DNA of 64,000 nucleotides from Styela clava (lineage: Eukaryota), in assembly GCF_964204865.1 (NCBI RefSeq), contig NC_135261.1, forward strand, positions 11,346,001-11,410,000. Reading direction: 5' to 3'. The first letter of the stretch is position 1, and each line of letters opens with the position of its first letter. The notes under the pieces are model-generated. The model did not search any database, had not been told where the DNA came from, and saw only the letters and a program-made list of their open reading frames with translations. Below, in pieces: positions 15,346-64,000 of this stretch. A program made the translations under genes and the position numbers.

Positions 15346-15786
15346 TGATTATTAATACCCTAATTAGTCTTCTCTTCAACGATAAACTCAAATTTTTAGG
15401 TAAGGTTCGAAATAATTGATTATCTTATAAATGAATGCAAACTTCACCAAATTCCCAATATTCGACCAACAGAAAACTCGGAATATCGATGGATGTTACT
15501 ACAATTTTTATATTGCGATAAATGTTCCGTCCTCTAAATTCAAATTTAACGCGAATTCAAATTTTTACACTCGGAATTGGAAAAAAATCGATATAATGCG
15601 AACATATGTTGAATATATTTAATTTTTGCAAAGCTGACAACAATCAAATTTCAAAAAAATGGCTGGATATCACAAATATATTTTTTACCATAATACCTTC
15701 TGACATTGGTCCTCTCTCTATTTAACGCGAAATTCAGGGTCTTGAACTTGGAACCGGAATTCTTTAAATGATGCAATTATCTGATA

Positions 15787-16530
15787 AACATGAGGGCCAT
15801 ACACAAATATATGGACACGAGAACCGAAACGAAACAATTCACCATCAATTCCCAGAAAACCATGCAATGTGCTTAACGAAGCTGTATTTTAAAACAGCTA
15901 ATGTACGATAACTTACCAGTATGTTTAAAATGTTCGTTCCAATTTGAAAATTTTGTCCGAAATCAGGCAATCCAATACACTGCGCTTTTTAGCCTAAATA
16001 TGTAGACTCTTTGACTAGTTTGAAGACAGGCAATGATATGCCAATTCATAAATTTTGTCCTAAGTTAGGCAATGTCATGCTGATTTAAAATTTTTGTCCG
16101 GAGTTTTGCAATTCCATTTTTTTGGTTAACGAAATTTATTCCACTACCAGACATTTGATATGCTCGACACTTACGTTATTAGAACTGAAATCTTCAATAT
16201 GTTTTCTGTTTATATTACAGTAATAGTTTGTAACGAAACTTTCCTTATGAAAAAGCCTGCGACTTGTTCTTCGCGACTTACCGTACCTCGATGAGCAACA
16301 CATCGCTTAAAAGGCGCGCTATTCCTAATTTTGATCAGGTCATCGTACACGGAAAAAAAATTCCATGAATCCCACAAAAACTTTGGAAAGGAATAAAAGT
16401 TATAGCCTTCTAGCGAACAATACAATCTTTGACAACTGGAAATTTCAAAGCAATTGTTCCAGTATTTAGAAAAAAAAATAAAAGATCAGAAGAAAATAAC
16501 AAGTACAACATAATAACAAAACAACATATC
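15787..16530 (-). mobile_element. Old degenerate copy of the Helentron-type element family (present in every unit)
   Basis: CAAATATATGGACACG near the left end and TAGCCTTCTAGCG...AAATTTCAAAGCAATTG.TCCAGTATT...AACAACAT near the right end match the young element at 38772-40021. Equivalent copies start near 34760, 46420 and 56740. Confidence 0.6.
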
Positions 16531-17134
16531 ATCACCCTGATAAAACATTAGGTTCAATTTTTTCAAAATTCGGCAGGAATTTCGCTTGAATAGCGATGTT
16601 CTGGAAACATCAATGCACTTTCTTCACCAAAAAATTGTACGACATCTTAACGTCAAAAAACGACAACATAAGGAAAATCCATTTTCTAATCAATGTACAT
16701 GTATTGTTAATATATAAAATAAAACCAATGAGCAACGGTGAATAATCGAATCACAGTTGAAAATAAGTGAATAGAGAATTTCTGTTCACCAAATGGCGTA
16801 ATTCACAGACTCCGTGTTCTTTTCAGTTTTTTATAAAAAATGGCATTCTTGCATATTGTACTTTCTTGTTGTACCTTAATGGTTCATTATAGAGATGGAT
16901 ATTGGCATTAGATGTTAATTCCTTATATATGTACCAGGTACAAAGTGTATCCTTAATTGTTATAAAATGAAGATTTTTTATGAAACGAGAGTTATACCAT
17001 AAATTTCCTTTCAGTAAACAATGTATTTCTATATCACGTAAATAATAAAGTTCAATGGTTTTCCAAATACTCTCTTTTGACTCATCTATGAGGTGATACA
17101 ACCATTTCAGTTTTTAAAAAATAAAGGTACTTTC

Positions 17135-18255
17135 TGTTAGCGAGAATCATAACGTGTTTCTAATTTGATGACGTTTTACGTTGTTACGCAGACGTTGCAA
17201 ACGTATCGACGCAGCATTATTGCGACAGAGTCCTGTTTCTCGATTAATCCCGGGAATTCTAAATTATCGCCACGCTGCTTCGATGAGTTGGCACCTTCTG
17301 TCCTTGTATACAGTGTAATCTATTGCGCTAGGAGTTGTTTATCGTGTTTAATATTGGGTTTACTATTCGCGGTTAGGATAAACGATTCGAATTGAAGTTA
17401 ATAATTGGGTTTAAAATCAACGGTTCATACTGGAGTTGTAATGTAATGTAGGGATACAGTTTAGGGTTGTAATATAGTCCAAATAGAATGATAAATACTC
17501 TTTCTTGTATTTAGTCACATAAGTTAAGTTGTATTTACTTTGGATTATAAATTGTTGAATTGAGTTGCCTGGAGATCCTAAACATTCGGTATGTAAATAT
17601 TGTTTTATCTTGTATGATTTATTCTGTAATTTAGTATTGTGAATACTATTTTATCCTATGTGATTTAATCCGTACATAATTGTGACATATGGTTATCTGC
17701 TAATTGGTGTGAATTGTTATTGCTTGTAAAAATGGTAATGCTGTTATATTTGATTAATTGTGCCATATAAGCTATTTAGTTTTATCTATTATTTTGGCAG
17801 AAAACCGTTCCATTAACAACGTTCCTTTACGTTCCTCATACCCGGTATCAAGATTTACGTTACGTTCCATTAACAACGTTCCTTTACGTTCCTCATACCC
17901 GGTATCAAGATTTACGTTACGTTCCATTAACAACGTTCCGTTTCCGGTACCCAGCAAGTTCTATTTTCCTGATTCATGTTCGAGATTTGATTTGAAGTGT
18001 CTGTTGATTGTTATTAAAGATATTCACCGATTTCAAGTTGAATTATATTGGGGCAGCATTTGAAATGCACAGAAGAATCTGGCGGCACTTTAACCGCTGT
18101 TTACAGACTTTAATTGCTTGAAAGCACGGACTAGTTGTAACAATTAACCGATATAGGTTTGGGGTCAGGACTGGGGTATTGGGACGCGTTTTTGAAGTCT
18201 CCAATCTCTTAATGTGCGTGAGAAGTAACCAGGCTACATAGAATCGAGCGCAACA
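17135..18255 (+). repeat. 5' LTR (1121 bp)
   Basis: Direct repeat of 24350-25413; contains two full 57-bp internal units (17806-17919). Confidence 0.96.
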
Positions 18256-18390
18256 TTAAAGTTTTCGAATGCAGGAAAACTGAAGTTTTCTATTTCGAAA
18301 TCAAACCAGAGTATTGTAAGCAGCAATTGAAAGATATCAAACTTTTCAATTGATCCTAGATTGAGTGAAGAAAGTTACTTAAAAGTCGAA

Positions 18391-21300
18391 ATGGCTGCAA
18401 AACCAGTTTCACAAGAAGAACTGGAACGTTTATTGGCTGATCTGAATGGTCAGTATAGATCAGCAGAAGAATTGATGTTGAATCCAAGAAATAAGGAGAT
18501 TCTACACTCCCAAGTAAAAGAAATAGATGCAATGTTTGTGGAGTATTCTAAAGCTTATGAAATACATGTTGCAGAACTGCCAGTAGATGAAGAGGCTCAA
18601 AGAGTAGCTAAAGAATCTTTCCAGAGAGAAAGTTATGGATATGAAGAGTTCAAAGCACATGTTGAAGAGTGGCTTTCCAGACAAGAAAGCACACAAATCG
18701 TTGAGAATCCTCCATGAAAACCACAATCTATAGCTAGTAGAAAATCATCTAATATGTCAAGACCTCGATCTGCAAGGACAGCATCGAGTTACAAAAGTAC
18801 AAGTTCCAGTTACAAGAGAACTGAGGCAATAGCTGTCAGAGAACTTGCAAAATTGAAAATGAAGCAACTGTCAGAGTTGGAACAGGCGGAACGAAATACT
18901 CAAGAAATAAAATCAGCATCAGAAAGAGAAATAGGGCGATTACAAGCTATACACGAATATCAAGCCGCATGTGTAGAGGCTGAAATGTGGGAAAGAAGCT
19001 CTAATCGCAATGAAAGGGTCCAGTTTCAAGAAATGGACCACCGATAGCACAATTGGTAGAATGTGAAGCAGCACAGGCTGAAGTAAACACACCTCAAGTG
19101 GGTCAAACCAATTGTATTGTGCCTCCTAGAGAGCCACAAGTTAGATTATCCCTGGATCCGGTCCAGGAAGTGGTTGCGGAAGTGATGCATCCCGTTAATC
19201 AAGAATTTCGAACTAGACAAGGTGGAATGAGACAGGCTAATTTGGTGAGTCCTGTAGAAGTACCTAATATGCCATCACAAGATGTTGGCTCAATTCTTGC
19301 TACTATGACATCTACAATGCGTGACATGGTAGATTTACCTAAACCCGAATTACTTTCGTTTCATGGTTCACATGAAGAATATACAAGGTTCATGAATAGT
19401 TTCAAGATAAATATTGAGAACAAGATTTCAGATGACAATCTGAGATTGACTTACTTGCAACAGTTTTGCAAAGGTAAAGCAAGAGAATTGATTCGTCAAT
19501 GTTCTGTATATCCTCCTACAGAAGGATTGACTTTAGCAAAGAGACTTCTAAGAGAAGCTTACGGAAGACCATTGTTGATTGCCAGAACTTATATGAAAGA
19601 GTTAATACATGGTCCAATGTTGAAACCAGATGATCGAGATAGTCTTCTGGATCTTTCTCATAAAATGGAAGAATGTTACCTAACGCTGTCGCATTGGAAG
19701 CAATATTCAGATCTAAATAATTTTGACAATATTGCTCAACTTTCATGTAGATTACCCTTGAAGTACCATAATAAATGGGAAGAGGAGGCAGCAGATTATG
19801 AGAATAGAAACATTGAACTAAAATTTGAACATCTTTTAAAGTTTGTCAAGAAAGCAGCAATTACGGCACAATCATCGATGGGCAAAGCTATGAGAGCTCA
19901 TAAAGAGAGGGAAAAGGCTAAACACCCTCAAAAGAAGAGAATTTATGCAAATTCCACTTCAACAAGTGGTGATGGCAAACCTGAACAATCTACCGAGAGA
20001 AAAGGTACACTTGTGAGAAATAGATACAGATGTGTTATCTGTTCAAAAGATCATTTTCTTATTCATTGTCCAGAGTTTGAAAGAAAATCTGCAAGTGAAC
20101 GCGAGGCTACAATTCGTGAATTTCATATTTGCAGAAACTGTTTATACATTGGTCATATGGCACGGCAATGTCGTAAGAATCCTGCATGTACTGAGAGAGG
20201 AGGTGGTGGCAGACATCATAGAATGCTTCATCGAAATGTTGCAGATACTAAGCGAAAAGAGCAAAGTACAAGTTCCGCTACTCAAACTGCTACATCGGGA
20301 TCAACCTTAACGAACTATACCAGAAATTCAGCTGGAGTATACTTGAATATAGTTCCAGTGAAAGTATCCTCACCTCAAGGTAGAGAAATTGAAGTATACT
20401 GTTTCCTAGACGAGGGAAGCACCTCTTGTCTATGTGATAAAAGATTGATGGAACTTTTAGAGATGGATGGTGAACCAATGAGTTATTGCATTACTACTGT
20501 AAACACACCGAATCCACAGAAACAAGATGGATTCGCTCTTGACTTAACTGTTAAACCACTGAAAGGGGAAGGTTGTGTGACATTACATCGTGTGCTCACT
20601 GTGGATGAAATTCCGACAGTACCGAATAAATTACCTAAAAGGATTGAATTACAAAGACATGAATATCTCGAGGGTATTGAATTTCCAAAATTACCAGATG
20701 AAAGAGTGATGCTCATGATTGGCGTGAATGTACCTGAAGTATTCTGGGTAAAAGATGAAAGGCGTGGTACTACAACTGAACCAGTTGCAAAAAGAAGTAT
20801 TCTTGGTTGGTCACTGGTTGGGCCTGCTTTTAATAAAGCTTCTCGGAATGAAAGTTTTCATGTACAAGTAAATCTTGCTGAAGTGAAAAGTGAAGATCTT
20901 CAACGACAAATTAGAGAGATGTGGGAAACAGATTTCAAAGATATATCATTGACTCCCACACCAACATTGTCAAGAGAAGATAAGTATGCATTACAACTGA
21001 TGGAAGATAATATAAAGATGGTGGATGGACATTACCAATCTCCGTTACCATGGAAACCAGGATGTCCTGAATTTCCTAATAATCGTGATGCAGTTATGAG
21101 AAGAACCAACAATTTGGGAAAACGCTTGTTGAAGAATGATGTTTTAAGGGACAAATATTGCAGTACCATGGCTGAATTTATAAGGAAAAGACGGGCAAGG
21201 AAAATTCCTGCTGCTGAATTTGAAGCACCCATTCGTAAAGCGTGGTATCTTCCTCATCAACCCGTTACATCAGAACAGAAACCTGGTAAAGTACGCCTGG

Positions 21301-24252
21301 TATTTGATGCAGGTGCAAGATATTTGAACACATCACTGAATGATCAATTACTGCAAGGTCCAGATATGGCAAATGGATTGTTATCTGTTTTGCTACGTTT
21401 CAGAATGTACAAATATGGTATAACTGCAGATATAGAAGCTATGTTCTTACAAGCTCGTGTAACTCCTAGGGATGTTGATGCATTGAGATTCCTATTTTGG
21501 CCTGATGGAGATTTGACAAAAACTCCTGTCGATCATCAGATGTTAGTGCATTGTTTTGGAAATACATCAAGTCCATTTTGTGCAAATTACTGTTTAAGGA
21601 GAACTGCAGAGGATTTTGGAAAAGACTTTCCATCAGATATAAGTGACAATATCAAAGATAATTCATATATAGATAACTTCCTACTTGGAGCAGATAGTAT
21701 ATCTTACTTACTTACTGAACTTACTGAGCTTACTGAACTTACTTACTGAGGTTTTCATTTAAACAAATGGAGGAGTAATTCAGAAGAAATTATTTCTTGT
21801 GTTCCAGAAAAGGATAGAGCACAAATTCAAACAAACGTAAATTTAGACTCAAATCGTTTTGAACGAGTTTTGGGAGTTGTGTGGTTCGTGATAGAAGATT
21901 GCTTTGGATTTAATACAAAGCTGAAGACAAAACCTGCTACGAAAAGAGGAGTTCTAGCAATTCTTAGTTCCGTATTTGATCCCATGGGTATTGTATCACC
22001 TGTGATATTGCAAGCAAGACCTATATTCCAAGAGTTATGTCGTCAACAATTGGGATGGAATGAAACTATTGGAGCAAATGAACAAATAGCATGGGAAAGC
22101 TGGACTAAAGCAATTCCAGAATTATCAGAAGTCAAATTACCAAGATACATTAAACCGAATTCATTTGGGGTTATTGTTTCACAAGAATTACATCATTTTG
22201 GCGATGCATCACAAGTTGCCTATGGAACAGTTTCATATTTGAGGTTATCCGATGAAAACGGTCAAATTCACTGTTCATTTTTACTTGGAAAATCAAGATT
22301 GTGTCCTATCAAGACAATATGTTCACTTCCACGGCTGGAAATTACAGCTGCTGCGCTTTGTGTGCGAGTGGATATGTTTTTAAGACGTCAATTAAAATTT
22401 GAGAAGAATGTTAAGTCTATATTCTGGAGTGATAGTACAGCTACTATCCAATCAATTTACAATTCGTCGAAAAGATTTCCTACTTTCATAGCTAACCGAT
22501 TAGCAAAAATTGAAGAAGGTTCAGAACCACATCAATGGCATTATGTTCCAAGTGAATTGAACCCAGCGGATTATGCATCCCGTGGAATGACAGCAAAGAA
22601 ATTGATTGCAAAGAAATCATGGTTACAAGGACCAGAATTTCTCTACCAGAATGAAGAGAACTGGCCACAAATGCCAGTTAAATTACCAGATTTACCATTG
22701 GAATTTATTCTGAAGAAGCCAATTAACGTTCTAGTGAATCTAGTGACAGAGAATAAACCTTTGGACAAGTTTATCAACTAATATTCTTCATGGTATAAGT
22801 TGAAGAAAGCTACCGCATGGATTATCAGATTCAAAATTTATTTACAAGCTAAACCAACAGTTCAAAAAGGTAAATTGCAAACAGAAGAGTTGAGAAGATC
22901 CGAAAATGAGCTGATAAAGTATTTACAAAATTGTGAGTTGAATAAAGTTATTGCAAAGTTACAAAATTCTGATGTACAAGGGAAAAGTGTGCTTAGAAAT
23001 TTGAAAATTGCACCTTCAATGCAAAAGTTGAATCCTGTTTTAATTGAAGGAATATTGAGAGTGGGTGGAAGATTGCAGAACGCACCCATAGAATTTGATT
23101 TGAAACATCCAATAATACTGCCAAGTAACCATCATATCACACAGTTGATTGTCAGAGAATACCATAAAAGTTCACATCATTGTGGAGCAAGTCATACATG
23201 GAATTTGCTGAGACAGAAGTTCTGGATTATCAATGGAGCTGTTGTTGTAAAGCGAAATATTCGTAACTGCATATTCTGCAAAAAGAGAAATGCAAAAAGA
23301 GAAAAGCAATTTATGGCTGACCTACCTAAAGAGCGTGTGACACCAGATCAACCACCATTCACATGTGTTGGAGTTGACAACTTCGGACCGTTGTTGGTGA
23401 AGCAAGGAAGAAGTTCTGTAAAGAGATGGGGCTTGATAATAACCTGTGCAACAACTAGAGCAGTGCATTTGGAAATTGTGCATAGTATGGATGTCAATTC
23501 ATTTATTAATGGGTTAAGAAGATTCATAGCCAGAAGAGGCAAGATTTCAACCATTATTTGTGATAATGGGAGCAATTTTACAGCTGGAAATAAAGTATTG
23601 AAGAAAGAAATTCAAATTTGGAATTCCAGTAAAATGGGAGAATTTTGCAGACAAAGTGATATCATATTCAAGTTCAATCCTCCCACAGCTTCACACTGGA
23701 GGTTTCTATGAAAGACTCATCAGATCAGCAAGAAAGATACTGACTGCTTTATTGCATGATCAATTGGTTACTGATGAAGCGTTGTCTACTATATTTTGTG
23801 AAGTTGAAAGTCAATTGAATTCAAGACCACTTACACCTATTAGTATGGATCCTTTGGATGAAGAACCACTTTCACCAAATCATTTATTGTTGCTGAAGCA
23901 TAAAGCAAATTTACCACCAGGAATATTTGACAAGAAAGATTGTTATGCGAGAAGAAGATGGCGTCAAATACAATATTTGGCTGACCAATTCTGGATAAGA
24001 TGGTCCAGAGAAGTACTCGTCAATCTACAAGCTCGACATAAATGGTTGAAGAAGGAAGACAATTTCAAAGTCGATGATCTTGTGTTACTGGTTGACAACA
24101 CAATACCAAGAGGGAAGTGGTTGACTGGCAGAATTATGGAAGTTATACCAGACAAATTTGGAGCTGTCAGACAAGTGACTGTCATAACTTCTCATGGGTT
24201 TTTAAGAAGACCAATAGCAAAACTTTGTATGATTCAGAGAGCTGATGAGTAA
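18391..24252 (+). pseudogene. BEL/Pao gag-pol polyprotein pseudogene
   Basis: CVICSKDHFLIHC / CRNCLYIGHMARQC / C...HHRMLH knuckles; protease FLDEGS; RT WYLPH, VFDA, LNDQLLQGP, DIEAMFLQ, FGNTSSPF, YIDN; RNase H HFGDAS, PRLE, WSDS, NPAD; integrase H..H/CIFC, GVDNFGP, DNGSNF, YERLI. In-frame stops at 18715, 21747, 22779; frameshifts near 19050 and 23695. Confidence 0.93.
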
Positions 24253-24338
24253 TTCATTGTTAGTTGTATTACTTATTTGTGATGATTCTCACTTTTTCTT
24301 TTTGAATTGTAAGATGTATTCTCTTCGTTCCTACATCT

Positions 24339-24349
24339 GGGGCGGGGAA
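24339..24349 (+). promoter_or_regulatory. Polypurine tract of the BEL element
   Basis: GGGGCGGGGAA immediately 5' of the 3' LTR. Confidence 0.8.
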
Positions 24350-25413
24350 TGTTAGCGAGAATCATAACGTGTTTCTAATTTGATGACGTTTTACGTTGTT
24401 ACGCAGACGTTGCAAACGTATCGACGCAGCATTATTGCGACAGAGTCCTGTTTCTCGATTAATCCCGGGAATTCTAAATTATCGCCACGCTGCTTCGATG
24501 AGTTGGCACCTTCTGTCCTTGTATACAGTGTAATCTATTGCGCTAGGAGTTGTTTATCGTGTTTAATATTGGGTTTACTATTCGCGGTTAGGATAAACGA
24601 TTCGAATTGAAGTTATTAATTGGGTTTAAAATCAACGGTTCATACTGGAGTTGTAATGTAATGTAGGGATACAGGTTAGGGTTGTAATATAGTCCAAATA
24701 GAATGATAAATACTATTTCTTGTATTTAGTCACATAAGTTAAGTTGTATTTACTTTGGATTATAAATTGTTGAATTGAGTTGCCTGGAGATCCTAAACAT
24801 TCGGTATGTAAATATTGTTTTATCTTTTATGATTTATTCTGTAATTTAGTATTGTGAATACTATTTTATCCTATGTGATTTAATCCGTACATAATTGTGA
24901 CATATGGTTATCTGCTAATTGATGTGAATTGTTATTGCTTGTAAAAATGGTAATGCTGTTATATTTGATTAATTGTGCCATATAAGCTATTTAGTTTTAT
25001 CTATTATTTTGGCAGAAAACCGTTCCATTAACAACGTTCCTTTACGTTCCTCATACCCGGTATCAAGATTTACGTTACGTTCCATTAACAACGTTCCGTT
25101 TCCGGTACCCAGCAAGTTCTATTTTCCTGATTCATGTTCGAGATTTGATTTGAAGTGTCTGTTGATTGTTATTAAAGATATTCACCGATTTCAAGTTGAA
25201 TTATATTGGGGCAGCATTTGAAATGCACAGAAGAATCTGGCGGCACTTTAACCGCTGTTTACAGACTTTAATTGCTTGAAAGCACGGACTAGTTGTAACA
25301 ATTAACCGATATAGGTTTGGGGTCAGGACTGGGGTATTGGGACGCGTTTTTGAAGTCTCCAATCTCTTAATGTGCGTGAGAAGTAACCAGGCTACATAGA
25401 ATCGAGCGCAACA
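24350..25413 (+). repeat. 3' LTR (1064 bp)
   Basis: Direct repeat of the 5' LTR with one 57-bp unit fewer and at least 5 substitutions. Confidence 0.96.
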
Positions 25414-27588
25414 CTTTCAACGTCTACCATTTCAATTCCACCTTTCATTTTTGGGTCAATCAATGTTTTACGTTTGATTCTTCCCCAATTTGAATTCCAT
25501 AAACGAAATATTAAAGAATTCAGTGATTTAACAAATTTTTTGGGAATAGTAACAGGTAAAAATGTAAATTGATATGTAAAGAGCGATAGAATTCATGATT
25601 TGATTACACATACTTTTCCTAGAATTGTTAAATTTCTCCTACGCCAAATTTGGATAATGTTTTGTACTTGCTGCAACATAAACGGTAAGTTAAGTTCATA
25701 TAGTTGTTTCAAATCAGCCGTAATTGTAATTCTCAATAATTTAAACTCATAAGTCCAGTTGAGATTGTGATGAATATTTTGTTCAATTATGCCACATTCA
25801 GTTTCAATATTCATTGCTTGTGATTTTCAGCATTTGTTTTGCATCCTGATATAGTTCAGCTGTTCGAAATAAGGTTTCAATGCTTTTAGATGAATCATCA
25901 GTGAAGACTATTGTATCATCTGCAGCTAGGGCTATTTTAATTTCGTTTTCTGCAATTTTATATCCAGTGATATCTTTATTATTACGAACCATCGTTGCGA
26001 AAATTTCTATTACTACAAGGAATAAATACGATGAGATTGGGTCGCCCTGATTAAGCCCGAATGCTATTAGCGACTGGAACAGGAAACGCCATACGACACT
26101 ATCAAATATCCAATCCAATAATTGTACCAGGTATTTCATTGTATGTTGTATGGTTTATTATATCGCAAAGTAATCGTATGTTTTCTCCCATTTGTCTGTT
26201 TTGAATAAAACCTCTTTGATCTTTGTGAATTATATTGTTCATTACTGTTTGGATTTGTGTCGTGAGAACTTTACTTAAAATTTTGTAATCCGTATTCAAT
26301 AGAGTAATGGGTAGATAGTTTTTTAAATTATCGGCGTCTTTTCCTTTCTTCAATATGAGGGTTATTATTCCATCACATTGAGTTTGGCTCATGTGACCAG
26401 TGATACACGCCTGGTTATAACATTTCAGCAGAGAGTCTTTCAAATCTTCGCAAAAGATTTTAGGTTAATAACGACCAACTCGACTTAATAGCGCAGACAT
26501 GCGGAGATAATATCATAACAACACAATTACACTTGGATATATAAAACAAGCCCATATTTGTCTGTGATGATAGATCGTCCGGAAAAAGAGCGTTGACAAT
26601 GTAGTCATTTTTTCCTAACTCAGGCTTTTTTGTCGTTGTTTAATTGACCCCCGTGTCCATAAAATTAGACATTGTCTTCCTTAATATATATACGAATCAT
26701 GGCAGAGCCCACAAACACTAAGACAGACACCTGGAAATTATACATTGTGAATAAAATAGTGTTTGCGTCCCAACGCCGCATCATCTCTTCTCCTTGTTTC
26801 GATGCAAGTTTCAATGACTTGCGCCATAAAATACATGCGTATAATGAAAAGAATTGTTCTATTCACAAAAGTCTAGTAATACTTTTTGGCGTTAGGATAT
26901 TATACTTGTTGAAGGAGCAACTGGAACGCGTATTTAATTGAAACATTCTACGCAAATTGTTGAAATTAACTTTGGTTTGAAGATGAATGGGGTGATTTCC
27001 GAGTGCAATTATGCCTGAACACAAGTTTTAACAAATTTTGATGATGGCTGATCTTCGGTTTTCAATTATCCACTTCTTACAGGATGTAATCACAAACATT
27101 GTTTTGCTTACAATTTTTGAGCATCTATTATCTAAACAATGACATGTTTGGTTTGATTGACGTTGTCAAACGATATTTGACGCGAGTCAAAAGTCGAGTT
27201 GCACATTGGCATATAAAACTTTTCCAGAAATAGAAATATTTATGCATGAGAAGAATCCGGGAAATATTGATGATATATAGAAATTTGTTTCGAATTACAA
27301 AAATATATCTCAAAATCCATATTTTTAAAGGCGCCCAATATGAAACTGTCCGCTAGTTGCAGGGGATGTAGTTGAATTATTTTTTGGAGATTCAGTATTC
27401 TCGGAGAATGACAACGTCAATCAATCAATCAATCAATCTATCGAAACATCAACATTTTGCTTCTAAAGTCTGCATACGTGTATGCAAAATAAACTGTTTG
27501 CTCTACAATAAAGATATAAGTGTTTCATCGAAAAACAAATGTTTTACTTGTGTTTAATATGCATGTGTGATGTTCACACTCTTTGAGG

Positions 27589-27711
27589 CAGGGGTAGGCA
27601 ACCTAAGGCCTGCGGGGCGAGAATCCTGCCCGCGACGTTTCACTGAAATATAGTAACAAAACACCCGTTTCGACGATTATATTCTATACGTAACAGAATT
27701 TATTGTGAGAC
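27589..27711 (+). mobile_element. hAT-Charlie-like element, left-end remnant (units 1-3)
   Basis: CAGGGGTAGGCAACC TIR followed by GGCC.GCGGG; the matching right TIR is seen only in unit 4 (60373-60387). Confidence 0.7.
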
Positions 27712-30384: not shown

Positions 30385-30392
30385 TATATATA
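30385..30392 (+). promoter_or_regulatory. TATA box of the amplified secreted-protein gene (same in all 4 copies)
   Basis: CCTATATATACAAG 65 nt upstream of the ATG, after GGAGGGAGGGGAG. Confidence 0.65.
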
Positions 30393-30449
30393 CAAGCGCA
30401 CAACAGGGCTTTGACAAGTCGTTGTTCAACAACCTGAATAAAGACGATC

Positions 30450-52713: not shown

Positions 52714-55369
52714 ATGAAGATTCTATTGTTACTTCTAGGCTGTTTGGCCGTAAGTATTTGATAAATAGTGCCCTTCATGTCTTTTTATCAATTTTGCCAA
52801 AATTGTAATGTTTACAGGTTGCCAATGCCGCTTTATACCAACCAAGTCATTGCGGATATGTTACTTACAATGTTGGGCAATTTTACCGAATCAATTACGG
52901 ATGTTACAGTTTCCGAAGCTACTACTGTCCTGCTTGGTTCACAACGAAATATTACTCTAATGTTCTGAAGAGCTATCCAGGAGAGAAATGCACAGAGGAT
53001 GGATTCGTAGGTAATTCAGAATTGTATCTTGATATGTTTTCCTGAATAATTTGAGAAACACACATTTTGAGGGCATGAATTTTTGTATTATAGAGATGAC
53101 GGTCGACGTTTTTGAAGCTGAAGTTAAAAAACAATTGAAAGAAGTGGCCGATAAAATATATCTTGATATGCAACAAAAATATGAAGATTGGGATGAAACT
53201 GCAACAAATCAAAATACCGAGGCAAAGAAAAAGCACGAAGACGCTATCGAGGAATATGCAAAGCAGTATTTGAGGTTTGTATTTCTTCTTACAATTTTTT
53301 CTTACGTATTCTTTTTTTACTCAAATTACTAACATCGTGAATTTTTAGAATTACGGGATTGCAGGAAGAGTCAGAAGAAATGAAGGAGACCAACAAGAAG
53401 GCTATTGAAAATTATAATACAAAACTAGATTCATTGTTGGAAGAGGCAAAAAAAAATTATAACGATGACATGCAGAAAAGATACGCTTGTGTGCTGGAAT
53501 ATCACGAAAAACTTGTCGAGAGGTGGGTTACTGTAAGTTTAAATGTCCGTTTACAAGAGAACGAAAATTCGAACCTTTCTTATTTCAGGTCTGTTACATG
53601 CTTCACCACTCGTTTAGCTAAAATAGCAGAATACAAAGAAGCTCTCGAAAAGCGCGTGACAGAGTACGAGACAAAGTATAAATGTGTCATGGAAGCCATC
53701 GTGAAACAGAGATCTGAAGTGTTCCAAAAACTCATATACAGAGCCCATTGTAAGTTTTTTCTATTCTTTCGAATTTTGCACATACTTTTATTCATAATGG
53801 AACTTTACATCTAGGTTCTGAGGATTGGAACGAAGCAGAGGTTAATGCAGTTTTGGAGGCTTTCAAAACTAAAGAAACTCAATCATATCAAACACAGTTG
53901 GATGAATACACTACGAAGCTAACTGCAGCTATCGCAGAACTTGTGAAAAGCTACGCATGCGCTTATCAGTGCGCTTACGGCGGAACTCTCTGTTTTGGCA
54001 GAAGTCAATTTTACACCAATTGGTAATTATAAATAAATGGAAGGTACATAGTATATATCAATATAATTCTACTCCTGGTTTTTTCTTTATAGTCGAAGTA
54101 TCGGGAAATGGTGGACGTACAGAATTACCACCCAAAGAAGTTGCTTCCGTTTCTTGACCTACAAATTCCAATACAGGACAATCCAATACAAGCAACTGAA
54201 AAAATGTGAAACCGGTTAGTGCAATTCCTAAAAATTTTCCACAATTGTCTTTATGTTTCACTGAATTTAATATTTTTATTACACTTAAGATGAAGTTAAT
54301 ATCACCGAACAAAAATTCAAAGAAGACCTTGATACCAAAGCTAAGACAATAATTGAATCTATGAAGAAAACATATGCTGAATGGTTTGCACAAGCAGAAA
54401 TAACTAATCAGAAGGCATTGGAGTCTTTCAAAAAGATTGTTGATGAGAGACACGAATGTTTAATAACGTATTATAAAGCAAATTGCTTAGTAAAGTAAGT
54501 GTCACAGTGAATAAGTATATCATAAGATGACATTTGGCACAATTGCTCTTTATATTTCCAGAAACAATTGCATCACAGCAGATAACTTGACTTCCCTAGA
54601 AGAATATCAGAAATCATTAGACGAACAAAAGAAAGAAGCGATTGCAGAGTATGAAAAAAAGCTTGAGGAGCGCCTTTCTCGCGCTTCCAAGGCATACACT
54701 GACATGATTGATTGCCACGAGCAAAGGATCAATGAGCGAATTGCCAAATATGTTGCACAATATGCATCATGCCTATCTACCAGAGAGACAAAGATCGAAA
54801 ACTACGAAAAGTGCTTATCGGAACGGTTTGAAAGAAGACTGAAATGCATTACAGAAAGATTGGAAAAGGTTGGCAGTGTGAAATTTTGTTCAAAAAATAT
54901 GTATATATATTTATATAATTCTTGCAAAAATGTTTAGATTTCCCAACTCAGAATGGAACAGTATTTGAAACTGCTTGAATTTTATATGGGCAAACCACTC
55001 GGCAACGAAGCTCAAGCATTGTACGACGCCTACCAAGCAAAAACGGAGACGGAACTCGCCGATATAGTGACCAAGATTAAAGGAGACTGGGAGAAACATC
55101 TAAGTGATCTGAAGGAGCATTACGCTTGTGGATTCAAATGCACATACTGTGTGCAACTTCGAGAACTCAGGATCCATTATAATTATCGCTGCGTGTTACC
55201 CACGTCTTCATCTTATTGCTTTGCTTACAAGCAATTCTGGTAAGTCATAGATACGTAATTGAATTGAATCAAATTTTTTCCTGTTTAACATATTCCTATT
55301 TTTAGCACGTACAAATCCTACCGCATTGTCAAGTATGGCGGATGCTTCAGATATGTCAGATGTGTATAA
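52714..55369 (+). CDS. Secreted 650-aa helical/Tyr-Cys-rich protein, copy 3 (intact)
   Basis: Same 11 exons at offset +22264; ATG 52714, TAA 55367-55369. Confidence 0.92.
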
Positions 55370-57739
55370 ACGCCGGCAACATCAACCGAACGACAAGCGA
55401 CTATGAAAATATTATTCATTTTAGTTTTAGATTAGGCTGATGAATTTATGCCAATTGCATTTACCATCTGATGATATTGACAATAAATTCTAAGCAAATG
55501 CAAATAGAAGTGTTACAATGTGGTTAGAGGCATCTGTAGTGACCGTGATTTGAAAGTACGTGTGGATTGAACACTATTTCTATACCTTTACATGTAAAAT
55601 TGTATCATGCAATAACATCAGTTACAAACTTCGCAAAGCACAAAGCGCTTTATTTTTAGACATGCATGCTTCATACTCCTTGTAACCCCCTTTATTTGCG
55701 ACCCGGTAACGCCAGGGTGCAAATAGTAGAAAAAGCTGTTGTGTGGAAAATGCATTTCCCAAATCCTTGTTCAAGCACAACCGATTTTTTCAAACTTATC
55801 ATGAAAATTGTACTTCTAAAAATTGATAACGCGAGATGAAACCTTGAACGATGCACAAGAAAACATCAAAATGGGAAATACAGGTCAACTTGTTACGTTC
55901 AGGAATGACAAATGTTGGATGAGAAATGGAATTATAATGAAAATAATGTCTCTGAACAATCATATTATTGCAAATTCCGCAATTACGAAATATTAATACC
56001 ATAACGGTAATATTTATGCTCCGGAAAAGAAAGTTTAAGAATCCTCACGTAAACTTCACAATCTGTTAATAATGACAATATTAAATACAAAAACACCAGT
56101 AAAATTCAAATCATGCAAATCTCAGTATTTTCCGGTAACCGGGGCTTAAATTTGAAATATTCGTTTAAATTCACATATTTGTCCAGAAAGTTTTGCAATA
56201 ATTCAAGCATCTTCCAGATAAATTCAATTTTTACAGACTTGACGACATTTTTTGTAGAGTTCAAAATTCTACAAATTTTCTTCGAAATATTCGAAAATTT
56301 GAGATGTCATCAAAATTATACAATTGCGATATATTAGTCTTCTCTTCAACGATAAACTCAAATTTTTAGGTAAGGTTCGAAATAATTGATTATTTTATAA
56401 ATGAATGCAAATTTCACAAAATTGCCAATATTCGACCAACAGAAAATTCGGAACATCGATGGATGTTACTACAATTTTCATAGTGCGATGTTTTGTCTTC
56501 TATAAACCGCGAATTCTAATTTTTACACTCGGGATTGGAAAAACTCGATATAATGCGAATATCTTTTGAATATATTTAATTTTTACAAAGTTGACAACAC
56601 TCAAATCTCAAAAATTGCTGGATATCACAAATATATTTTTTACCATAATACCTTCTGACATTGGTCCTCTCTCTATTTAACGCAAAATTCAGGGTCTTGA
56701 ACTTGGAACCGGAATTCTTTAAATGATGCAATTATCTGATAAACATGAGGGCCATACACAAATATATGGACACGAGAACCGAAACGAAACAATTCACCAT
56801 CAATTCCCAGAAAACCATGCAATGTGCTTAACGAAGCTGTATTTTAAAACAGCTAATGTACGATAACTTACCAGTATGTTTAAAATGTTCGTTCCAATTT
56901 GAAAATTTTGTCCGAAATCAGGCAATCCAATACACTGCGCTTTTTAGCCTAAATATGTGGACTCTTTGACTAGTTTGAAGACAGGCAATGATATGCCAAT
57001 TCATAAATTTTGTTCTAAGTTAGGCAATGTCATGCAAATTTAAAATTTTTGTCCGGAATTTTGCAATTCCATTTTTTTGGTTAATGAAATTTATTCCACT
57101 ACCAGACATTTGATATGCTCGACACTTACGCTATTAGAACTGAAATCTTCAATATGTTTTCTGTTTATAATACAGTAATAGTTTGTAACGAAACTTTCTT
57201 TATGAAAAAGCCTGCGACTTGTTCTTCGCGACTTACTGTACCTCGATGAGCAACACATCGCTTAAAAGGCGCGCTATTCCTAATTTTGATCAGGTCATCG
57301 TACACGGAAAAAAAATTCCATGAATCCCACAAAAACTTTGGAAAGGAATAAAAGTTATAGCCTTCTAGCGAACAATACAATCTTTGACCACTGGAAATTT
57401 CAAAGCAATTGTTCCAGTATTTAGAAAGAAAAATAAAAGATCAGAAGAAAATAACAAGTACAACATAGTAACAAAACAACATATTATCACCCTGATAAAA
57501 CATTAGGTTCAATTTTTTCGAAATTTGGCAGGAATTTCGCTTGAATAGCGATGGTTCTGGAAACATCAATGCACTTTCTTCACCAAAAAATTGTACGACA
57601 TCTTAACGTCAAAAAACGACAACATAAGGAAAATCCAGTTTCTAATCAATGTACATGTATTGTTAATATAAAAAATAAAACCAATGAGCAACGGTGAATA
57701 ATCGAATCACAGTTGAAAATAAGTGAATAGAGAATACCT

Positions 57740-59045
57740 ATTCACCAAATGGCGTAATTCACAGACTCCGTGTTCTTTTCAGTTTTTTTAAAAAATGGCA
57801 TTCTTGCATATTGTACTTTCTTGTTGTACCATAATGGTTCATTATAGAGATGGATATTGGCATTGGATGTTAATTCCTTATATATGTACCAGGTACAAAG
57901 TGTATCCTTAATTGTTATAAAATGAAGATTTTTTATGAAACGAGAGTTATACCATAAATTTCCTTTCAGTAAACAATGTATTTCTATATCACGTAAATAA
58001 TAAAGTTCAATGGTTTTCCAAATAATCTCTTTTGACTCATCTATGAGGTGATACAACCATTTCAGTTTTTGAAAAATAAAGGTACTTTCAACGTCTACCA
58101 TTTCAATTCCACCTTTCATTTTTGGGCCAATCAATGTTTTACGTTTGATTCTTTCCCAATTTGAATTCCATAAAAAACGAAATATAAAAGAATTCAGTGA
58201 TTTAACAAATTTTTTGGGAATAGTAACAGGTAAAAATGTAAATTGATATGTAAATAGCGATAGAATTCATGATTTGATTACACATACTTTTCCTAGAATT
58301 GTTAAATTTCTCCTACGCCAAATTTGAATAATGTTTGGTACTTGCTGCAACATAAACGGTAAGTTAAGTTCATATAGTTGTTTCAAATCAGCCGTAATTG
58401 TAATTCTCAATACTTTAAACTCATAAGTCCAGTTGAGATTGTGATGAATATTTTGTTCAATTATGCCACATTCAGTTCCAATATTCATTGCTTGTGATTT
58501 TCAGCATTTGTTTTGCATCCTGACATAGTTCAGCTGTTCGAAATAAGGTTTCAATGCTTTCAGATGACTCATCAGTGAAGACTATTGTATCATCTGCAGC
58601 TAGGGCTATTTTAATTTGAGATTGAATCGCCGTGATTAAGCCCGAATGCTTTTAGTGACTGGAACAGGAAACACCATTCGACACTATCAAATATCCAATC
58701 CAATAATTGTACCAGGTATTTTATTGTATGTTGTATGGTTTATTATATCGCAAAGTAATCGTATGTTTTCTCCCATTTGTCTGTTTTGAATAAAACCTCT
58801 TTGATCTTTGTGAATTATATTGTTCATTACTGTTTGGATTTGTGTCGTGAGAACTTTACTTAAAATTTTGTAATCCGTATTCAATAGCGTAATGGGTCGA
58901 TAGTTTTTTAAATTATCGGCGTCTTTTCCTTTCTTCAATATGAGGGTTATTATTCCATCACATTGAGTTTGGCTCGTGTGACCAGTGATACACGCCTGGT
59001 TATAACATTTCAGCAGAGAGTCTTTCAAATCTTCCCAAAAGATTT
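57740..59045 (-). pseudogene. Tx1/L1-like LINE relic, unit 4 (shares the 89-bp deletion)
   Basis: Same fragments and same deletion junction (TTTAATTT|GAGATT) as unit 3. Confidence 0.85.
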
Positions 59046-59967
59046 TATGTTAATAACGACCAACTCGACTTAATAGCGCAGACATGCGGAGATAATATCA
59101 TAACAACACAATTACACTTAGATATATAAAACAAGCCCATATTTGTCTGTGATGATAGATCGTCCGGAAAAAGAGCGTTCACAATGTAGTCATTTTTTCC
59201 TAACTCAGGCTTTTTTGTCGTTGTTTAATTGACCCTTGTGTCCATAAAATTAGACATTGTCTTCCCTAATATATATACGAATCCTGGCAGAGCCCACAAA
59301 CACTAAGACAGACACCTGGAAATTATACATTGTGAATAAAATAGTGTTTGCGTCCCAACGCCGCATCATCTCTTCTCCTTGTTTCGATGCAAGTTTCAAT
59401 GACTTGCGCCATAAAATACATGCGTATAATGAAAAGAATTGTTCTATTCACAAAAGCCTAGTAATACTTTTTGACGTTAAGATATTATACTTGTTGAAGG
59501 AGCAACTGGAACGCGTATTTAATTGAAACATTCTACGCAAATTGTTGAAATTAACTTTGGTTTGAAGATGAATGGGGTGATTTCCGAGTGCAATTATGCC
59601 TGAACACGAGTTTTAACAAATTTTGATGATGGCTGATCTTCGGTTTTCAATTATCCACTTCTTACAGGATGTAATCACAAACATTGTTTTGCTTACAATT
59701 TTTGAGCATCCATTATCTAAACAATGACATGTTTGGTTTGATTGACGTTGTCAAACGATATTTGACGCGAGTCAAAAGTCAAGTTGCACATTGGCATATA
59801 AAACTTTTCCAGAAATAGAAATATTTATGCATGAGAAGAATCCAGGAAATATTGATGATATATAGAAATTTGTTTCGAATTGCAAAAATATATCTCAAAA
59901 TCCATATTTTTAAAGGCGCCCAATATGAAACTGTCCGCTAGTTGCAGGGGATGTAGTTGAATGTAGT

Positions 59968-60387
59968 AGAATCCCACCCGCGACGTTTCACTGAAATATA
60001 GTAACAAAACACCCGTTTCGACGATTATATTCTATACGTAACAAAATTTATTGTGAGACACGTGTAGACTAAATCATATTATAATCTAACAAGTAGAAAA
60101 TTAATGAGCCTATAATTTCATTATAATTAGACAAATGTCAACAAAACGCAGAAACGTTGATGCTAGGTGCAAAGGGTTCAATGGCGCCAAAAATCTTCAA
60201 ATGAAATTTTTTGATGCAATGTAATGAGGAAAGAAATCTATAGTCTATTCGAGAAATGTACCACTGCTTGATTTTTATTATAAAAAGTATCATCCGTTTG
60301 ATTTCAAACTTTCTAGAATTATGTGCGCCCGCCATTATTGCCACCCTTGATTTTGGCCCGCGAGCGACAAAAGGTTGCCGACCCTTG
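59968..60387 (+). mobile_element. hAT-Charlie-like element, body and right end (unit 4)
   Basis: GGTTGCCGACCCTTG (60373-60387) is the reverse complement of the left TIR of units 1-3 at 13/15 positions; followed by CTTTAGAG (left flank in units 1-3: CTTTGAGG). Confidence 0.7.
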
Positions 60388-61121
60388 CTTTAGAGATCGG
60401 GTGTGTAAGATCACTGTCTGTCAACAAATTATATGAAAAATTAAGACAAGATTTTCTAATTCAGATCTATTCATAACAGACACGCATTCATAAAACCTTC
60501 GGTACAAGTCTATTAAAATTTGACTAGAATTTCCCTTGCATTGCGATGGCTCTGGAAACACCAGTGCACGTCACAGAAACAAATGTACGGCATCTTAACT
60601 CCAAAAAATGACAATATAAGAAAAATCCAGTTTCTAATTAATGTTCATGTCTGGCTAATACAAAAAAAAAAACGAATGGACAACGGTAATAAAGCAAATC
60701 ATAACTATAGCGATTAAAAAAAAAACGTTACAAACTTGGCGCAAGACTCATTGCTGCTAAAAGGTCGCAAGTATGCAATTATTTCGCTCACGACCAACTC
60801 GACCTAAAAGCGGGGACAAGCGGAAATGATATTATGACAACACAATTACACTTTGATATATGAATCAAATCCATATTTGCTTGTAATAATAGATCGTCCG
60901 TAAAAATGTAGGTATTTCTTCTTAACTTAAACTTTTTTTCGTTGTTAATTGACCCTCGTGTCCATAAAATTTGACATTGCTCTCTTATATATATACGAAT
61001 CATTGAAAGGTCTACAATTATTAGAAAGACAACAGTAATCACACATGGTTAATAAAATAACTGATGAAAACCCTTTTCTTTGAAGGAGATCACAGGTCAT
61101 GGAAGTTTGAGGACCGCTGTC

Positions 61122-61460
61122 AGGATAGGATGGGATTCACATATTTATCCCGGGGGAGAAGAAAGCCGATAAGACGGCTTATCCATATGGCGAACCACGG
61201 CCTCTCGTCCGGTTACCATTCCAAGTCCGGTATGTGATTAGTTATATTGTTTGTTTTTGAAAGCATGGACTTGGTGGTGGAGGAAGCTGTAACCGACCAG
61301 CCGTTACGTGAACCACCCAGCGACGGCGAGGAGTCCAGCAATCCGCTCGCACATAACCATCCCTGCATGGGATTCGAACCTGCGAACCTACGCAGAGTAA
61401 TTAGAGGTGCGGTGGCGAGCGTATTTCTAACGCTTCACCCGTTGAGCCACACCGCCGCGC
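61122..61460 (-). mobile_element. tRNA-derived SINE, unit 4
   Basis: Near-identical to 28172-28510, with a few substitutions in the tail. Confidence 0.85.
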
Positions 61461-63399
61461 CTGTTCTAGTTGCTGACGCGCCAACGTCGCATCATCTCTT
61501 CTCCTTGCTTGGATGCAAGTTTCAATGACTTGCGTCAAGACATACGTGTGCATAATGACGAGAATTGTTTTATTCAAGAAAGTCTACAAATAGATTTCGA
61601 CGATGAGATTTTATACTTGTAGATAGAGCAACTGCACCGCGTTTTTTATTAAACATTCTTCGCAAATTGTTGAAACTGACTTCGGTTTGAAGATGAATGA
61701 AGTGATGTTCGAGTGCAATTATGCCTGAACACGAGTTCTAACAAATTTTGATGATGGCTGATTCTCGGTTTTCGATTATCCACTTCTTAAAGGGTGTAAT
61801 CACAAACATTGTTTTGCTTACAATTTGTGAGCATCTATTATCTAAACAAAGACATGTTTGGTTTGATTGACGTTGTTAAACAATATTTGAAGCAATTCAA
61901 AAGTCGACACACATTAGCATGTTGAACTTCTCCAGAAATAGAAATATTTATGCATGAGCAGAATCCGGAAAATATTGATGAAGTATGGAAATTTCGTTCG
62001 AATTACAAAAAAAATATCTCAAAGTCCATATTTTTGAAGGCGCCTAATATGAAACTATCCGCTAGATGTTAGGTAAGCAGTTGAAATATTCTTTTCGGAT
62101 TCAGTATTCTCGGAGAATGACAACGTCAATCAATCAATCAATCTATCGAAATATCAACGTTTTGCTTCCAAAGTTTGCATACGTGTATGCAAAATAAATT
62201 GTTTGTTCTAACATACGGATATAAGTGCTTCATCGAAAACAAACGTTTTAAATGTGATATCATTTATACGGATATGACAGCTCTTCATCAAAAATATAAT
62301 AATCTTCAAAATTGGTATTTAACTCGACATTTTGTGTTTTTGCCTTGAATGCGATGGAAATTCACTTAAATTATTTAGTACTTTTCAACTTTACCATGTT
62401 GAAGTAGGATTCAAATGTTTTGAGAATTCCAAATTCCAAAATAAAATTTTCGACTCCGAGACCTGTGACGAAACGTTATGAAACTGGATATTTCAACTTT
62501 ATTGGTGTTGTCTCGACATTAATTCAATCGTTATCTTTTCATTTGGGGGTTGTGGTTGGCGTTAGATATATATAATATATGTTTAAATGCCAGCAATTGA
62601 ACAGAACATAAAATTCGTTTTGAAATTAATTGGACTATTCTACACTAATTTCTGCTTTATCATTTTGAAGGTGAAAAAATAGTTCCAACTCCAATACCAC
62701 TGACAACGAGTGAAATATTCTTCGTGTGCAAAATTCATGTTCAAATAACTCATATTACAGTGTTCAATCATTATGGCTATTTCAGATACAATGTTGATGC
62801 TCATATAATCAGGGAAAATTTTTGATTGATTGACGCTGTCAAGCATGAGAACGTCAATCAATCTATGATTCAAAAGTCGTACATTTTGATTGTTAAAATA
62901 ATTGTATGCGTATGCCAATAAGTAAATAATAAAAATAAAGTGTCGTTGAAAAACTGCTATGTTTTTAGTAATGCTCTTCAATTGGATGTAATACCTGTTG
63001 ACTAACTATCTTCAATCCTGAAGTTATATTTATATAAACAATGCGCACTGATGAAGTGAATAGCTATGCCGAGGTGGTATCCCATTAGTTGAAAAATAAT
63101 GTACTTCACAATATAAAGATTAATTAACAATTACCATTTTACTAAATGCACAATGATGGAAGATTTAAATGAAATAAACTGAACTTTCTGTTATAACTAC
63201 GGCATAGCGATTCGAGGCAAACATTTGTTGCGCTTATGACAATTTCAATCATTGTGGTCGAGACAAGAGATCACTAATGTAACATTAAAACCCAAATGAG
63301 CTGGTACTTGAATTTGGAGGGAGGGGAGAAATCCTATATATACAAGCGCACAACAGGGATTTGACAAGTCGTTGTTCAACAACCTGAATAAAGACGATC

Positions 63400-63960
63400 A
63401 TGAAGATTCTATTGTTACTTCTAGGCTGTTTGGCCGTAAGTATTTGATAAATAGTGCCCTTCATGTCTTTTTATCAATTTTGCCAAAATTATAATGTTTA
63501 CAGGTTGCCAATGCCGCTTTATACCAACCAAGTCATTGCGGATATGTTACTTACAATGTCGGGCAATTTTACCGAATCAATTACGGATGTTACAGTTTCC
63601 GAAGCTACTACTGTCCTGCTTGGTTCACAACGAAATATTACTCTAATGTTCTGAAGAGCTATCCAGGAGAGAAATGCACAGAGGATGGATTCGTAGGTAA
63701 TTCAGAATTGTATCTTGATATGTTTTCCTGAATAATTTGAGAAACACACATTTTGAGGGCATGAATTTTTGTATTATAGAGATGACGGTCGACGTTTTTG
63801 AAGCTGAAGTTAAAAAACAATTGAAAGAAGTGGCCGATAAAATATATCTTGATATGCAACAAAAATATGAAGATTGGGATGAAACTGCAACAAATCAAAA
63901 TACCGAGGCAAAGAAAAAGCACGAAGACGCTATCGAGGAATATGCAAAGCAGTATTTGAG
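63400..63960 (+). CDS. Secreted helical/Tyr-Cys-rich protein, copy 4 (exons 1-3; continues beyond the window)
   Basis: ATG 63400; exons 63400-63435, 63504-63696, 63780-63960, same structure as copy 1. Confidence 0.88.
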
Positions 63961-64000
63961 GTTTGTATTTCTTCTTACAATTTTTTCTTACGTATTCTTT

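What the first reader, a model, noticed from the sequence alone, without database searches (positions are those of the whole stretch)
15363..64000. Recent tandem amplification (at least 4 copies) of the secreted-protein gene with all complete ORFs intact
Seen: among the three complete copies I find only about 6 coding substitutions in 1953 nt (A>T exon 3 of copy 2; N/T exon 5; K/E exon 8; K>E exon 9 of copy 3; two synonymous). Introns and promoter are nearly identical and no copy has a lesion. Inference: dosage-driven amplification or concerted evolution of a bulk-secreted product, probably copy-number variable between individuals. There are too few substitutions to infer selection.
Basis: partly seen in the sequence, partly recalled or inferred. 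Interest (0 to 1): 0.75.

Follow-up and report, generated by a model that had tools for sequence, protein, structure and literature searches.

The report
Amplified sea-squirt feeding-gland protein genes
This is an 11-copy tandem array of a spliced sea-squirt gene related to the feeding-gland (endostyle) gene Ends1, one of four arrays of this family in the genome, and it was likely multiplied to mass-produce a predicted rod-shaped secreted protein for the mucous feeding net.

Summary
Confirmed and extended. The array runs on to 11 copies; copies 10 and 11 carry nonsense codons. All 11 units differ, show recombination, and two share one BEL/Pao insertion, which argues for real unequal crossing-over rather than an assembly artefact. 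A second, inverted array of 14 copies (94% identical) lies 650 kb away, with dN/dS about 0.4 between the two. Distant paralogues form arrays on C17 (about 11 copies) and C3 (7 copies, almost purely cationic). The protein is a homologue of Ciona Ends1: both published Ci-Ends1 primer peptides sit at the exact spacing in a hit. By gene order it is the unannotated top marker of endostyle zone 6A in a published S. clava atlas. It is a twice-repeated unit of long 11-residue-period helices with Tyr/Cys-rich basic ends. Dosage selection and a role in the feeding net are inferred, not shown; one proteomic preprint found little protein in ascidian mucus. Copy-number variation is untested. New member of a known family; moderate interest.

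The parts
15363..17134 (.). Left edge of the array: partial spacer unit with no gene body, about 96% identical to the internal spacers
17135..25413 (+). BEL/Pao LTR retrotransposon inserted in the first spacer. LTRs 17135-18255 and 24350-25413 (5 mismatches in 1064 nt), 5-bp target duplication, coding region interrupted by stops. The same insertion sits in spacer 8 (C16:11458099-11466280).
   Evidence: Pfam DUF1759, Peptidase_A17, Integrase_H2C2
25414..30449 (.). Spacer and 5' flank of copy 1, 99.5% identical to other units; holds a decayed LINE-like RT fragment (minus strand, about 25593-26464)
   Evidence: RVT_1
30385..30390 (+). TATA-like box 65 nt before the ATG of copy 1 (function not tested)
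30450..33105 (+). Copy 1 (A01) of the Ends1-family gene; exons 30450-30485, 30554-30746, 30830-31010, 31085-31258, 31325-31485, 31551-31758, 31829-31950, 32026-32230, 32298-32604, 32674-32975, 33042-33105; intact, 650 aa
33218..33240 (+). AATAAA at 33218-33223; RNA-like contigs of two runs end at 33240
33106..42393 (.). Spacer 1 (9288 nt) with a private 1.25-kb insertion at 38776-40021
42394..45049 (+). Copy 2 (A02), intact; gene identical to copy 5
45050..52713 (.). Spacer 2 (7664 nt), deletion type
52714..55369 (+). Copy 3 (A03), intact
55370..63399 (.). Spacer 3 (8030 nt)
63400..64000 (+). Exons 1-3 of copy 4 (A04); the gene continues intact to C16:11412054

Best explanation
The window is the left end of an 11-copy tandem array of a spliced Ends1-family gene, likely spread by unequal crossing-over and likely kept because zone 6 of the endostyle must secrete the protein in bulk into the continuously made mucous feeding net. 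Shown: the array, the gene structure, splicing, recombination among units, purifying selection against the second array, homology to Ci-Ends1, and three further arrays of the family. Inferred from gene order: that this gene is the top zone-6A marker of the S. clava endostyle atlas. Predicted: a signal peptide, then two copies of a roughly 300-aa unit of three long amphipathic helices with 11-residue periodicity, with invariant cysteines that would staple it, bounded by short Tyr/Cys-rich basic segments. Inferred: such rods would associate with one another, with the far more cationic paralogues (C17, C3) and with anionic mucus to give the net fibre or its sticky coat. Central copies are homogenised; end copies escape exchange and decay.
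For: Array: 11 copies at 10.3-11.9 kb spacing (one 19.9-kb interval holds the second BEL), no N runs; 11 of 11 cores distinct, neighbours share alleles, Rm = 6; identical BEL insertion site in 2 of 12 spacers, its 5' LTRs differing at 2 sites against 5 between 5' and 3' LTR; 3 of 25 C16 copies have nonsense codons, all at or next to array ends. Selection: dN/dS 0.39-0.49 between arrays A and B, p = 4e-5. Family: 26 hits at E <= 0.001 among 1.84 billion representatives; of 20 looked up, all 7 with a species name are ascidian. P0026 (C. intestinalis, E 4e-15) carries both Ci-Ends1 primer peptides exactly at the 210-bp spacing; 0 of 100 shuffles reach the score. Expression: spliced contigs in 4 of 4 runs, summed depth about 1e5-1e6 in one and 4-23 in two. 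Model 000055F.63, next in order after PTRH2 (.62), is in 100% of cluster-4 spots, log2FC 2.9, and 83% of other spots; cluster 4 = Zone_6A. The C17 paralogue is listed as endostyle-specific. Recurrent amplification: C17 copies 99.5-99.9% alike with no DNA match to the A unit; C3 7 copies, 97 K+R against 4 D+E in 261 residues. Protein: internal repeat E 8e-25; helices from AlphaFold, mean pLDDT 81.6; period peaks at 3.65-3.77 in 6 of 6 helices of the family profile, above shuffles in 4 of 6.
Against: No protein-level evidence that it is in the net. A preprint found minuscule protein and no mucus-specific peptides in ascidian mucus and argues against self-assembling proteins. The sequence of model .63 was not seen; the link rests on gene order and its lack of annotation. 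The atlas authors call zone 6 an antimicrobial epithelium. Within array A the changes do not differ from neutral (p = 0.52), so the latest copies may be drift. In run X1 the gene was barely deeper than the flank (about 3 against 2). Full-length pTM is only 0.43. None of the 67 fixed A/B exon differences appears at 5% or more in the 4 RNA-like runs, so array B may add little dosage there.
Confidence: 0.6

Rival explanations
1. The array is real and the gene is an endostyle gene, but the protein is a defence or particle-binding additive of the mucus rather than its scaffold: amphipathic, partly very cationic helices bind microbial surfaces or lipid.
For: Zone 6 is described as antimicrobial epithelium. 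Paralogues have net charge about +70 (C17) or are almost free of acidic residues (C3). The helices have apolipoprotein-like 11-mer periodicity, and 10 of 23 family members hit PF01442 below its cut-off.
Against: The window's own protein is near neutral (net +8), 650 aa with about 29 cysteines, unlike short antimicrobial peptides. Copies are homogenised and under purifying selection, not diversified.
Confidence: 0.22
2. Copy number is mostly neutral: repeats in the unit promote unequal crossing-over, and the copies are passengers under birth-and-death evolution.
For: Units carry LINE and LTR pieces that were copied along. 3 of 25 C16 copies are already broken. Within-array changes look neutral.
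Against: The same family is amplified at four loci on three contigs; the C17 unit shares no DNA with the A unit. 22 of 25 C16 copies are intact. Array B keeps dN/dS 0.31-0.35 among intact copies.
Confidence: 0.13
3. Copy number is inflated by assembly: two haplotypes or noisy reads were stacked in tandem.
For: The BEL element occurs twice in the array, as two alleles of an array start might. Copies 8-11 share promoter alleles absent from copies 1-7. Run X1 shows little extra depth.
Against: 11 distinct cores cannot come from two alleles of one gene. The second BEL lies in an internal-type unit with different flanks on both sides. The allele break falls one unit before that BEL. In run X11 gene bins are 12-30 deep and flank bins 0-2. 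An older assembly also joins the array's LINE piece to PTRH2.
Confidence: 0.05

Closest known systems
Ci-Ends1 (Ciona endostyle-specific gene 1, AB010895.1; C. intestinalis LOC104265754 = P0026) and Ci-Ends-sp1 (AB010896.1)
   Same: Homologous: E 4e-15, 32% identity over residues 1-249; primer peptides place Ci-Ends1 in P0026 exactly and Ends-sp1 in the same family. Signal peptide and Y/C pattern are shared. That CiEnds1 is a zone-6, secreted, roughly 650-aa protein is recalled; the two original papers were not held.
   Different: In a quick tree the Styela C16 and C17 genes group together (SH-aLRT 99), apart from the Ciona and Clavelina genes, so they are co-orthologues, not one-to-one (C3 not included). 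Styela has about 39 copies in four near-identical arrays. The window's protein is near neutral, while Ciona and Clavelina members are +38 to +59.
Dosage-type tandem arrays under concerted evolution (rDNA, histone clusters, amylase AMY1; recalled)
   Same: Head-to-tail near-identical units, recombination among copies, shared passenger insertions, diverged or broken end copies.
   Different: An intron-rich gene for a secreted protein of unknown biochemistry; four paralogue arrays that differ strongly in charge; the link between copy number and output is untested.
Exchangeable apolipoproteins (apoA-I, apoA-IV; Pfam PF01442)
   Same: Secreted, long amphipathic helices of 11-residue period; weak profile hits to apoA-I and apoA-IV (E 1e-6 to 4e-3).
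   Different: Scores of the members shown (22-41 bits) are far below the 90-bit cut-off. Only 0 and 1 prolines in the two helical regions, so no proline-punctuated 22-mers. Conserved cysteines and Tyr/Cys caps are not an apolipoprotein trait (recalled). The window's protein has no Pfam hit.

Membership tests
Ascidian Ends (Ci-Ends1) family | Sequence homology to the Ci-Ends1 product | tested here: met
   P0026 hit at E 4e-15 and carries both Ci-Ends1 primer peptides at exact spacing, 0 of 100 shuffles as high
Ascidian Ends (Ci-Ends1) family | N-terminal signal peptide, about 600-670 aa, two internal repeats with conserved Cys/Tyr | tested here: met
   Hydrophobic N-terminus read from the alignment, no signal-peptide program run; internal repeat E 8e-25; C70, C199, C297, C301, C497, C593, C597 in 15 of 15 full-length rows
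Ascidian Ends (Ci-Ends1) family | Endostyle-specific expression (zone 6) | tested here: inconclusive
   Supported by gene order only: model 000055F.63 is top marker of Zone_6A, its sequence was not seen; tissues of the RNA-like runs are not on record
Ascidian Ends (Ci-Ends1) family | Protein secreted into the pharyngeal mucus | not testable with these tools
   Needs MS or antibody; one preprint found no mucus-specific peptides
Tandem array under concerted evolution | Head-to-tail copies more alike within than between arrays | tested here: met
   0-20 differences within A, 0-85 within B, 125-159 between, per about 2650 nt
Tandem array under concerted evolution | Exchange among copies | tested here: met
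   50 of 351 pairs four-gamete incompatible, Rm = 6; shared insertions in non-adjacent units of A and B
Tandem array under concerted evolution | Copy number varies between individuals | tested here: inconclusive
   Contig depth high over the gene in X11, not in X1; the tool warns that depth is no copy number
Apolipoprotein A1/A4/E (PF01442) | Score above the Pfam gathering cut-off (90 bits) | tested here: not met
   No hit for the window's protein; 22.3, 28.8 and 40.8 bits for the three relatives whose scores were shown
Apolipoprotein A1/A4/E (PF01442) | 11/22-mer amphipathic repeats punctuated by proline | tested here: not met
   11-mer period present, but 0 and 1 prolines in the two helical regions
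Apolipoprotein A1/A4/E (PF01442) | Shared fold | tested here: inconclusive
   No Foldseek match at E <= 0.001; VIA best Z 8.6 to generic helical bundles, an apoE fragment at Z 6.9

The most novel reading that the evidence does not exclude
The Ends family is the missing protein fibre of the tunicate feeding net: a two-component system in which near-neutral 11-mer helical rods (this array) co-assemble with almost purely cationic paralogues (C3, C17) into filaments that bind anionic mucus and trap negatively charged microbes, with the mixing ratio set by the copy numbers of four separately amplified arrays.
Probability: 0.25. Interest if true: 0.8.

Novelty: new member of a known kind. Interest (0 to 1): 0.5.

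Why it matters
What the chordate feeding net is made of is still argued about. This array ties an unannotated, apparently very abundant zone-6 transcript to the Ends1 family, gives it a predicted rod structure, and shows about 39 copies in four arrays with very different charge. That makes specific tests possible: named peptides for MS, antibody localisation, knock-down and copy-number assays. It also warns that older S. clava gene models and expression values for this gene probably pool many copies. The array mechanism itself is ordinary.

Tried and rejected
Pfam scans of 8 exons and of the full protein: no family above cut-off. Word-index homologue searches found only S. clava itself, 1 and 2 hits; the full HMMER search was needed. 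ESM Atlas: no usable feature hit, structure TM by query 0.27 or less. Foldseek on both models: 0 matches at E <= 0.001. VIA-align on the half model (first sequence P0032, a natural fragment): best Z 8.6, not above generic bundles; the full model was not searched this way. Two-copy complex of residues 44-360: no verdict, score 0.00, alignment not used; no evidence either way. Run search: no holder on record as RNA; the four runs laid were RNA by guess and proved spliced. Depth test on the last copy plus flank: X11 fits many copies, X1 does not, X3 is uninterpretable, X12 is spliced; inconclusive. The gene's own peptide motifs were not found in the held part of PMC9953650 Table S3, hence the gene-order route. 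No tRNA genes in the window. Only two of the four Ends primer pairs of PMC7347631 were tested. Careful tree not finished; quick tree used, 18 rows, shorter fragments and C3 left out. Apolipoprotein membership rejected. Nine literature searches listed no paper on these arrays; the library lacks most subscription journals. Earlier-finding look-ups by place and by sequence were blank.
Full report
Observation. A self-comparison of the window shows repeats of 98-99.6% identity from 25413 onward and a 96% piece at 15363-17134. I built an 11-exon gene with a 1953-nt CDS and ten GT-AG introns. Complete copies lie at 30450-33105, 42394-45049 and 52714-55369, and a fourth starts at 63400. Spliced contigs join all ten introns in 3 of 4 runs laid and nine in the fourth. 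The protein is annotated in Styela clava as uncharacterized LOC120330333 and relatives.

Extent. The window is G000:C16:11346001-11410000. Array A has 11 copies on the plus strand up to 11497495. Array B has 14 copies on the minus strand at 10609869-10726270, 93.7-94.8% identical to copy 1. Neither region has N runs. 22 of 25 copies are intact; A10, A11 and B01 have premature stops, and the end copies A11 and B01 are the most diverged. A 34%-identical paralogue forms an array of about 11 copies at C17:7.27-7.40 Mb (counted from search hits, intactness not checked). In the 40 kb fetched these are 99.5-99.9% alike at a 12.1-kb period, with no DNA match to the A unit. In three exons it has 97 K+R and 4 D+E, where the window's gene has 38 and 41. 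Net charges are +8 (A), +21 (B) and about +70 (C17).

Real or artefact. All 11 A cores (5.2 kb) are distinct. Of 27 informative sites, 50 of 351 pairs fail the four-gamete test, Rm = 6, and neighbouring units share alleles. Spacers differ by private and shared indels. One BEL/Pao insertion, with the same target duplication, sits in 2 of 12 spacers; the two 5' LTRs differ at 2 sites, against 5 between the LTRs of one element. A 3-kb insertion sits at the same place in 3 of 13 internal B spacers. Stacking of two haplotypes of a shorter array is not formally excluded, since the BEL occurs twice and copies 8-11 form an allele group. But the second BEL has internal-type flanks and the allele break falls one unit earlier. 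A gene model of an older assembly fuses PTRH2 to the array's LINE piece, so the right junction exists there too. Contig depth was mixed: 12-30 over the gene against 0-2 in the flank in X11, about 3 against 2 in X1. Copy-number variation is therefore untested.

Selection. Within A, 10 non-synonymous and 4 synonymous changes among 9 intact copies do not differ from neutrality (p = 0.52). Between A and B, dN/dS is 0.39-0.49 in four pairs (p = 4e-5 for A02-B05), and 0.31-0.35 among intact B copies in three pairs. None of the 67 fixed A/B exon differences is listed at 5% or more in the four RNA-like runs, so A-type transcripts dominate there.

Identity. A full HMMER search gave 26 hits. Of the 20 looked up, 7 carry a species name (Styela, Clavelina, Ciona savignyi, C. 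intestinalis); the other 13 are environmental sequences without one. The C. intestinalis hit P0026 contains the peptides of both Ci-Ends1 qPCR primers of PMC7347631 (Table 5, passage seen) exactly, at the spacing of the 210-bp amplicon; 0 of 100 shuffles reach the score. The Ends-sp1 pair fits the same family. A quick tree groups the Styela C16 and C17 genes together, apart from the Ciona and Clavelina genes. That CiEnds1 is a secreted zone-6 protein is recalled; the original papers are not held.

Expression. In Table S1 of PMC9953650 the C17 paralogue is an endostyle-specific gene, paired with Ciona KY.Chr12.60. Its high Ciona value stands in a column headed 'heart'; the vWFL gene KY.Chr1.1785 peaks in the same column and is endostyle-specific by PMC8462739, so the heading looks shifted. 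For the window's gene, the older scaffold runs .60 (SLC22-like transporter).62 (PTRH2).63, towards the array. Model .63 is unannotated and the top marker of Stereo-seq cluster 4 in PMC10980280: 100% of spots, log2FC 2.9, and 83% of other spots. Cluster 4 is labelled Zone_6A. I did not see the sequence of .63, nor models .64-.67. Summed contig depth ranged from about 1e5-1e6 (X2) to 4-23 (X13, X15); tissues are not on record and the tool calls depth a poor measure.

Protein. After a hydrophobic N-terminus the chain is a two-fold repeat (24% identity, E 8e-25). Short segments rich in Tyr, Cys and basic residues bound two helical regions of 220 and 235 aa. AlphaFold gives three long helices per repeat (80-139, 146-248, 255-298; 365-423, 433-546, 551-594), mean pLDDT 81.6, pTM 0.43; a half-length relative gives pTM 0.63. 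Hydrophobic periodicity peaks at 3.65-3.77 in the family profile, not at the heptad value of 3.5, and exceeds shuffles in 4 of 6 helices; seven cysteines are invariant in 15 full-length rows. This periodicity probably explains the weak apolipoprotein hits, which miss the Pfam cut-off and lack proline punctuation. Fold searches gave nothing specific.

Mechanism. Shown: array, splicing, exchange, constraint, family. Inferred: the endostyle secretes a net without pause (PMC6109156 and bioRxiv 2025.01.21.634085, passages), so a bulk component would gain from extra gene copies, and four amplifications of one family fit that better than drift. The rods would serve as fibre or sticky coat, with cationic paralogues binding anionic mucus and particles. 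Against: the preprint found minuscule protein and no mucus-specific peptides, and the atlas calls zone 6 antimicrobial. I put about 0.95 on a real array, 0.97 on the family, 0.85 on zone 6, and 0.6 on the whole account.

Sources seen. Passages only: PMC7347631, PMC6109156, PMC12992692, PMC12205476, PMC13635237, PMC8462739, PMC12212465, bioRxiv 2025.01.21.634085. Passages plus searched or partly read supplements: PMC9953650, PMC10980280 (also section 10). Both supplement archives were cut at 4 million characters and the Science Advances figure supplement was too large to read, so a sequence or map for model .63 may lie in unseen parts. Nine searches listed no paper describing the arrays.

Verdict. 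It is a new, heavily amplified member of the known Ends family in an ordinary kind of array. The interest lies in the handle it gives on the make-up of the tunicate feeding net. Interest 0.5.

Noticed in passing
window 17135-25413 and G000:C16:11458099-11466280: Young BEL/Pao element (LTRs 0.5% apart) present at the same base in two array units; both coding regions are interrupted; a 57-nt duplication is in three of the four LTRs.
   Followed up: yes
G000:C3:18750738-18817939: Seven-copy array of an Ends paralogue almost free of acidic residues (97 K+R, 4 D+E in 261 aa). Gene model and intactness not worked out.
   Followed up: partly
G000:C17:7273191-7397849: About 11 copies of a 34%-identical, net +70 paralogue at 12.1-kb period; its older model 000008F.106 marks a different Stereo-seq cluster (8) from the window's gene.
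   Followed up: partly
L011-L012 region and L034-L035 (C16:11506723-11511191): PTRH2 and an intronless-looking 767-codon vasa-like open frame lie just right of array A; SLC22-like transporter copies follow (names from sequence resemblance, not tested).
   Followed up: no
L015-L016 and L029-L031 (C16:10591874-10608731, 10731653-10751706): Array B sits inside a cluster of carboxylesterase-like genes on both sides (name from resemblance, not tested).
   Followed up: no
L018-L020, L026-L027 (spacers SB03, SB04, SB12): A 3-kb insertion at the same position in three B spacers; not identified.
   Followed up: no
P0027, P0029 (environmental homologues): Two distant family members carry long N-terminal Met-Gly-Gly-Lys-Ser repeat extensions; the unnamed environmental members form their own clade, possibly pelagic tunicates (guess).
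   Followed up: no
   Followed up: no
PMC9953650 Table S1: The Ciona organ columns appear mislabelled: known endostyle genes peak under 'heart'.
   Followed up: partly
run X12 on L034: A run labelled sediment metagenome holds spliced, poly(A)-ended contigs of this gene.
   Followed up: no
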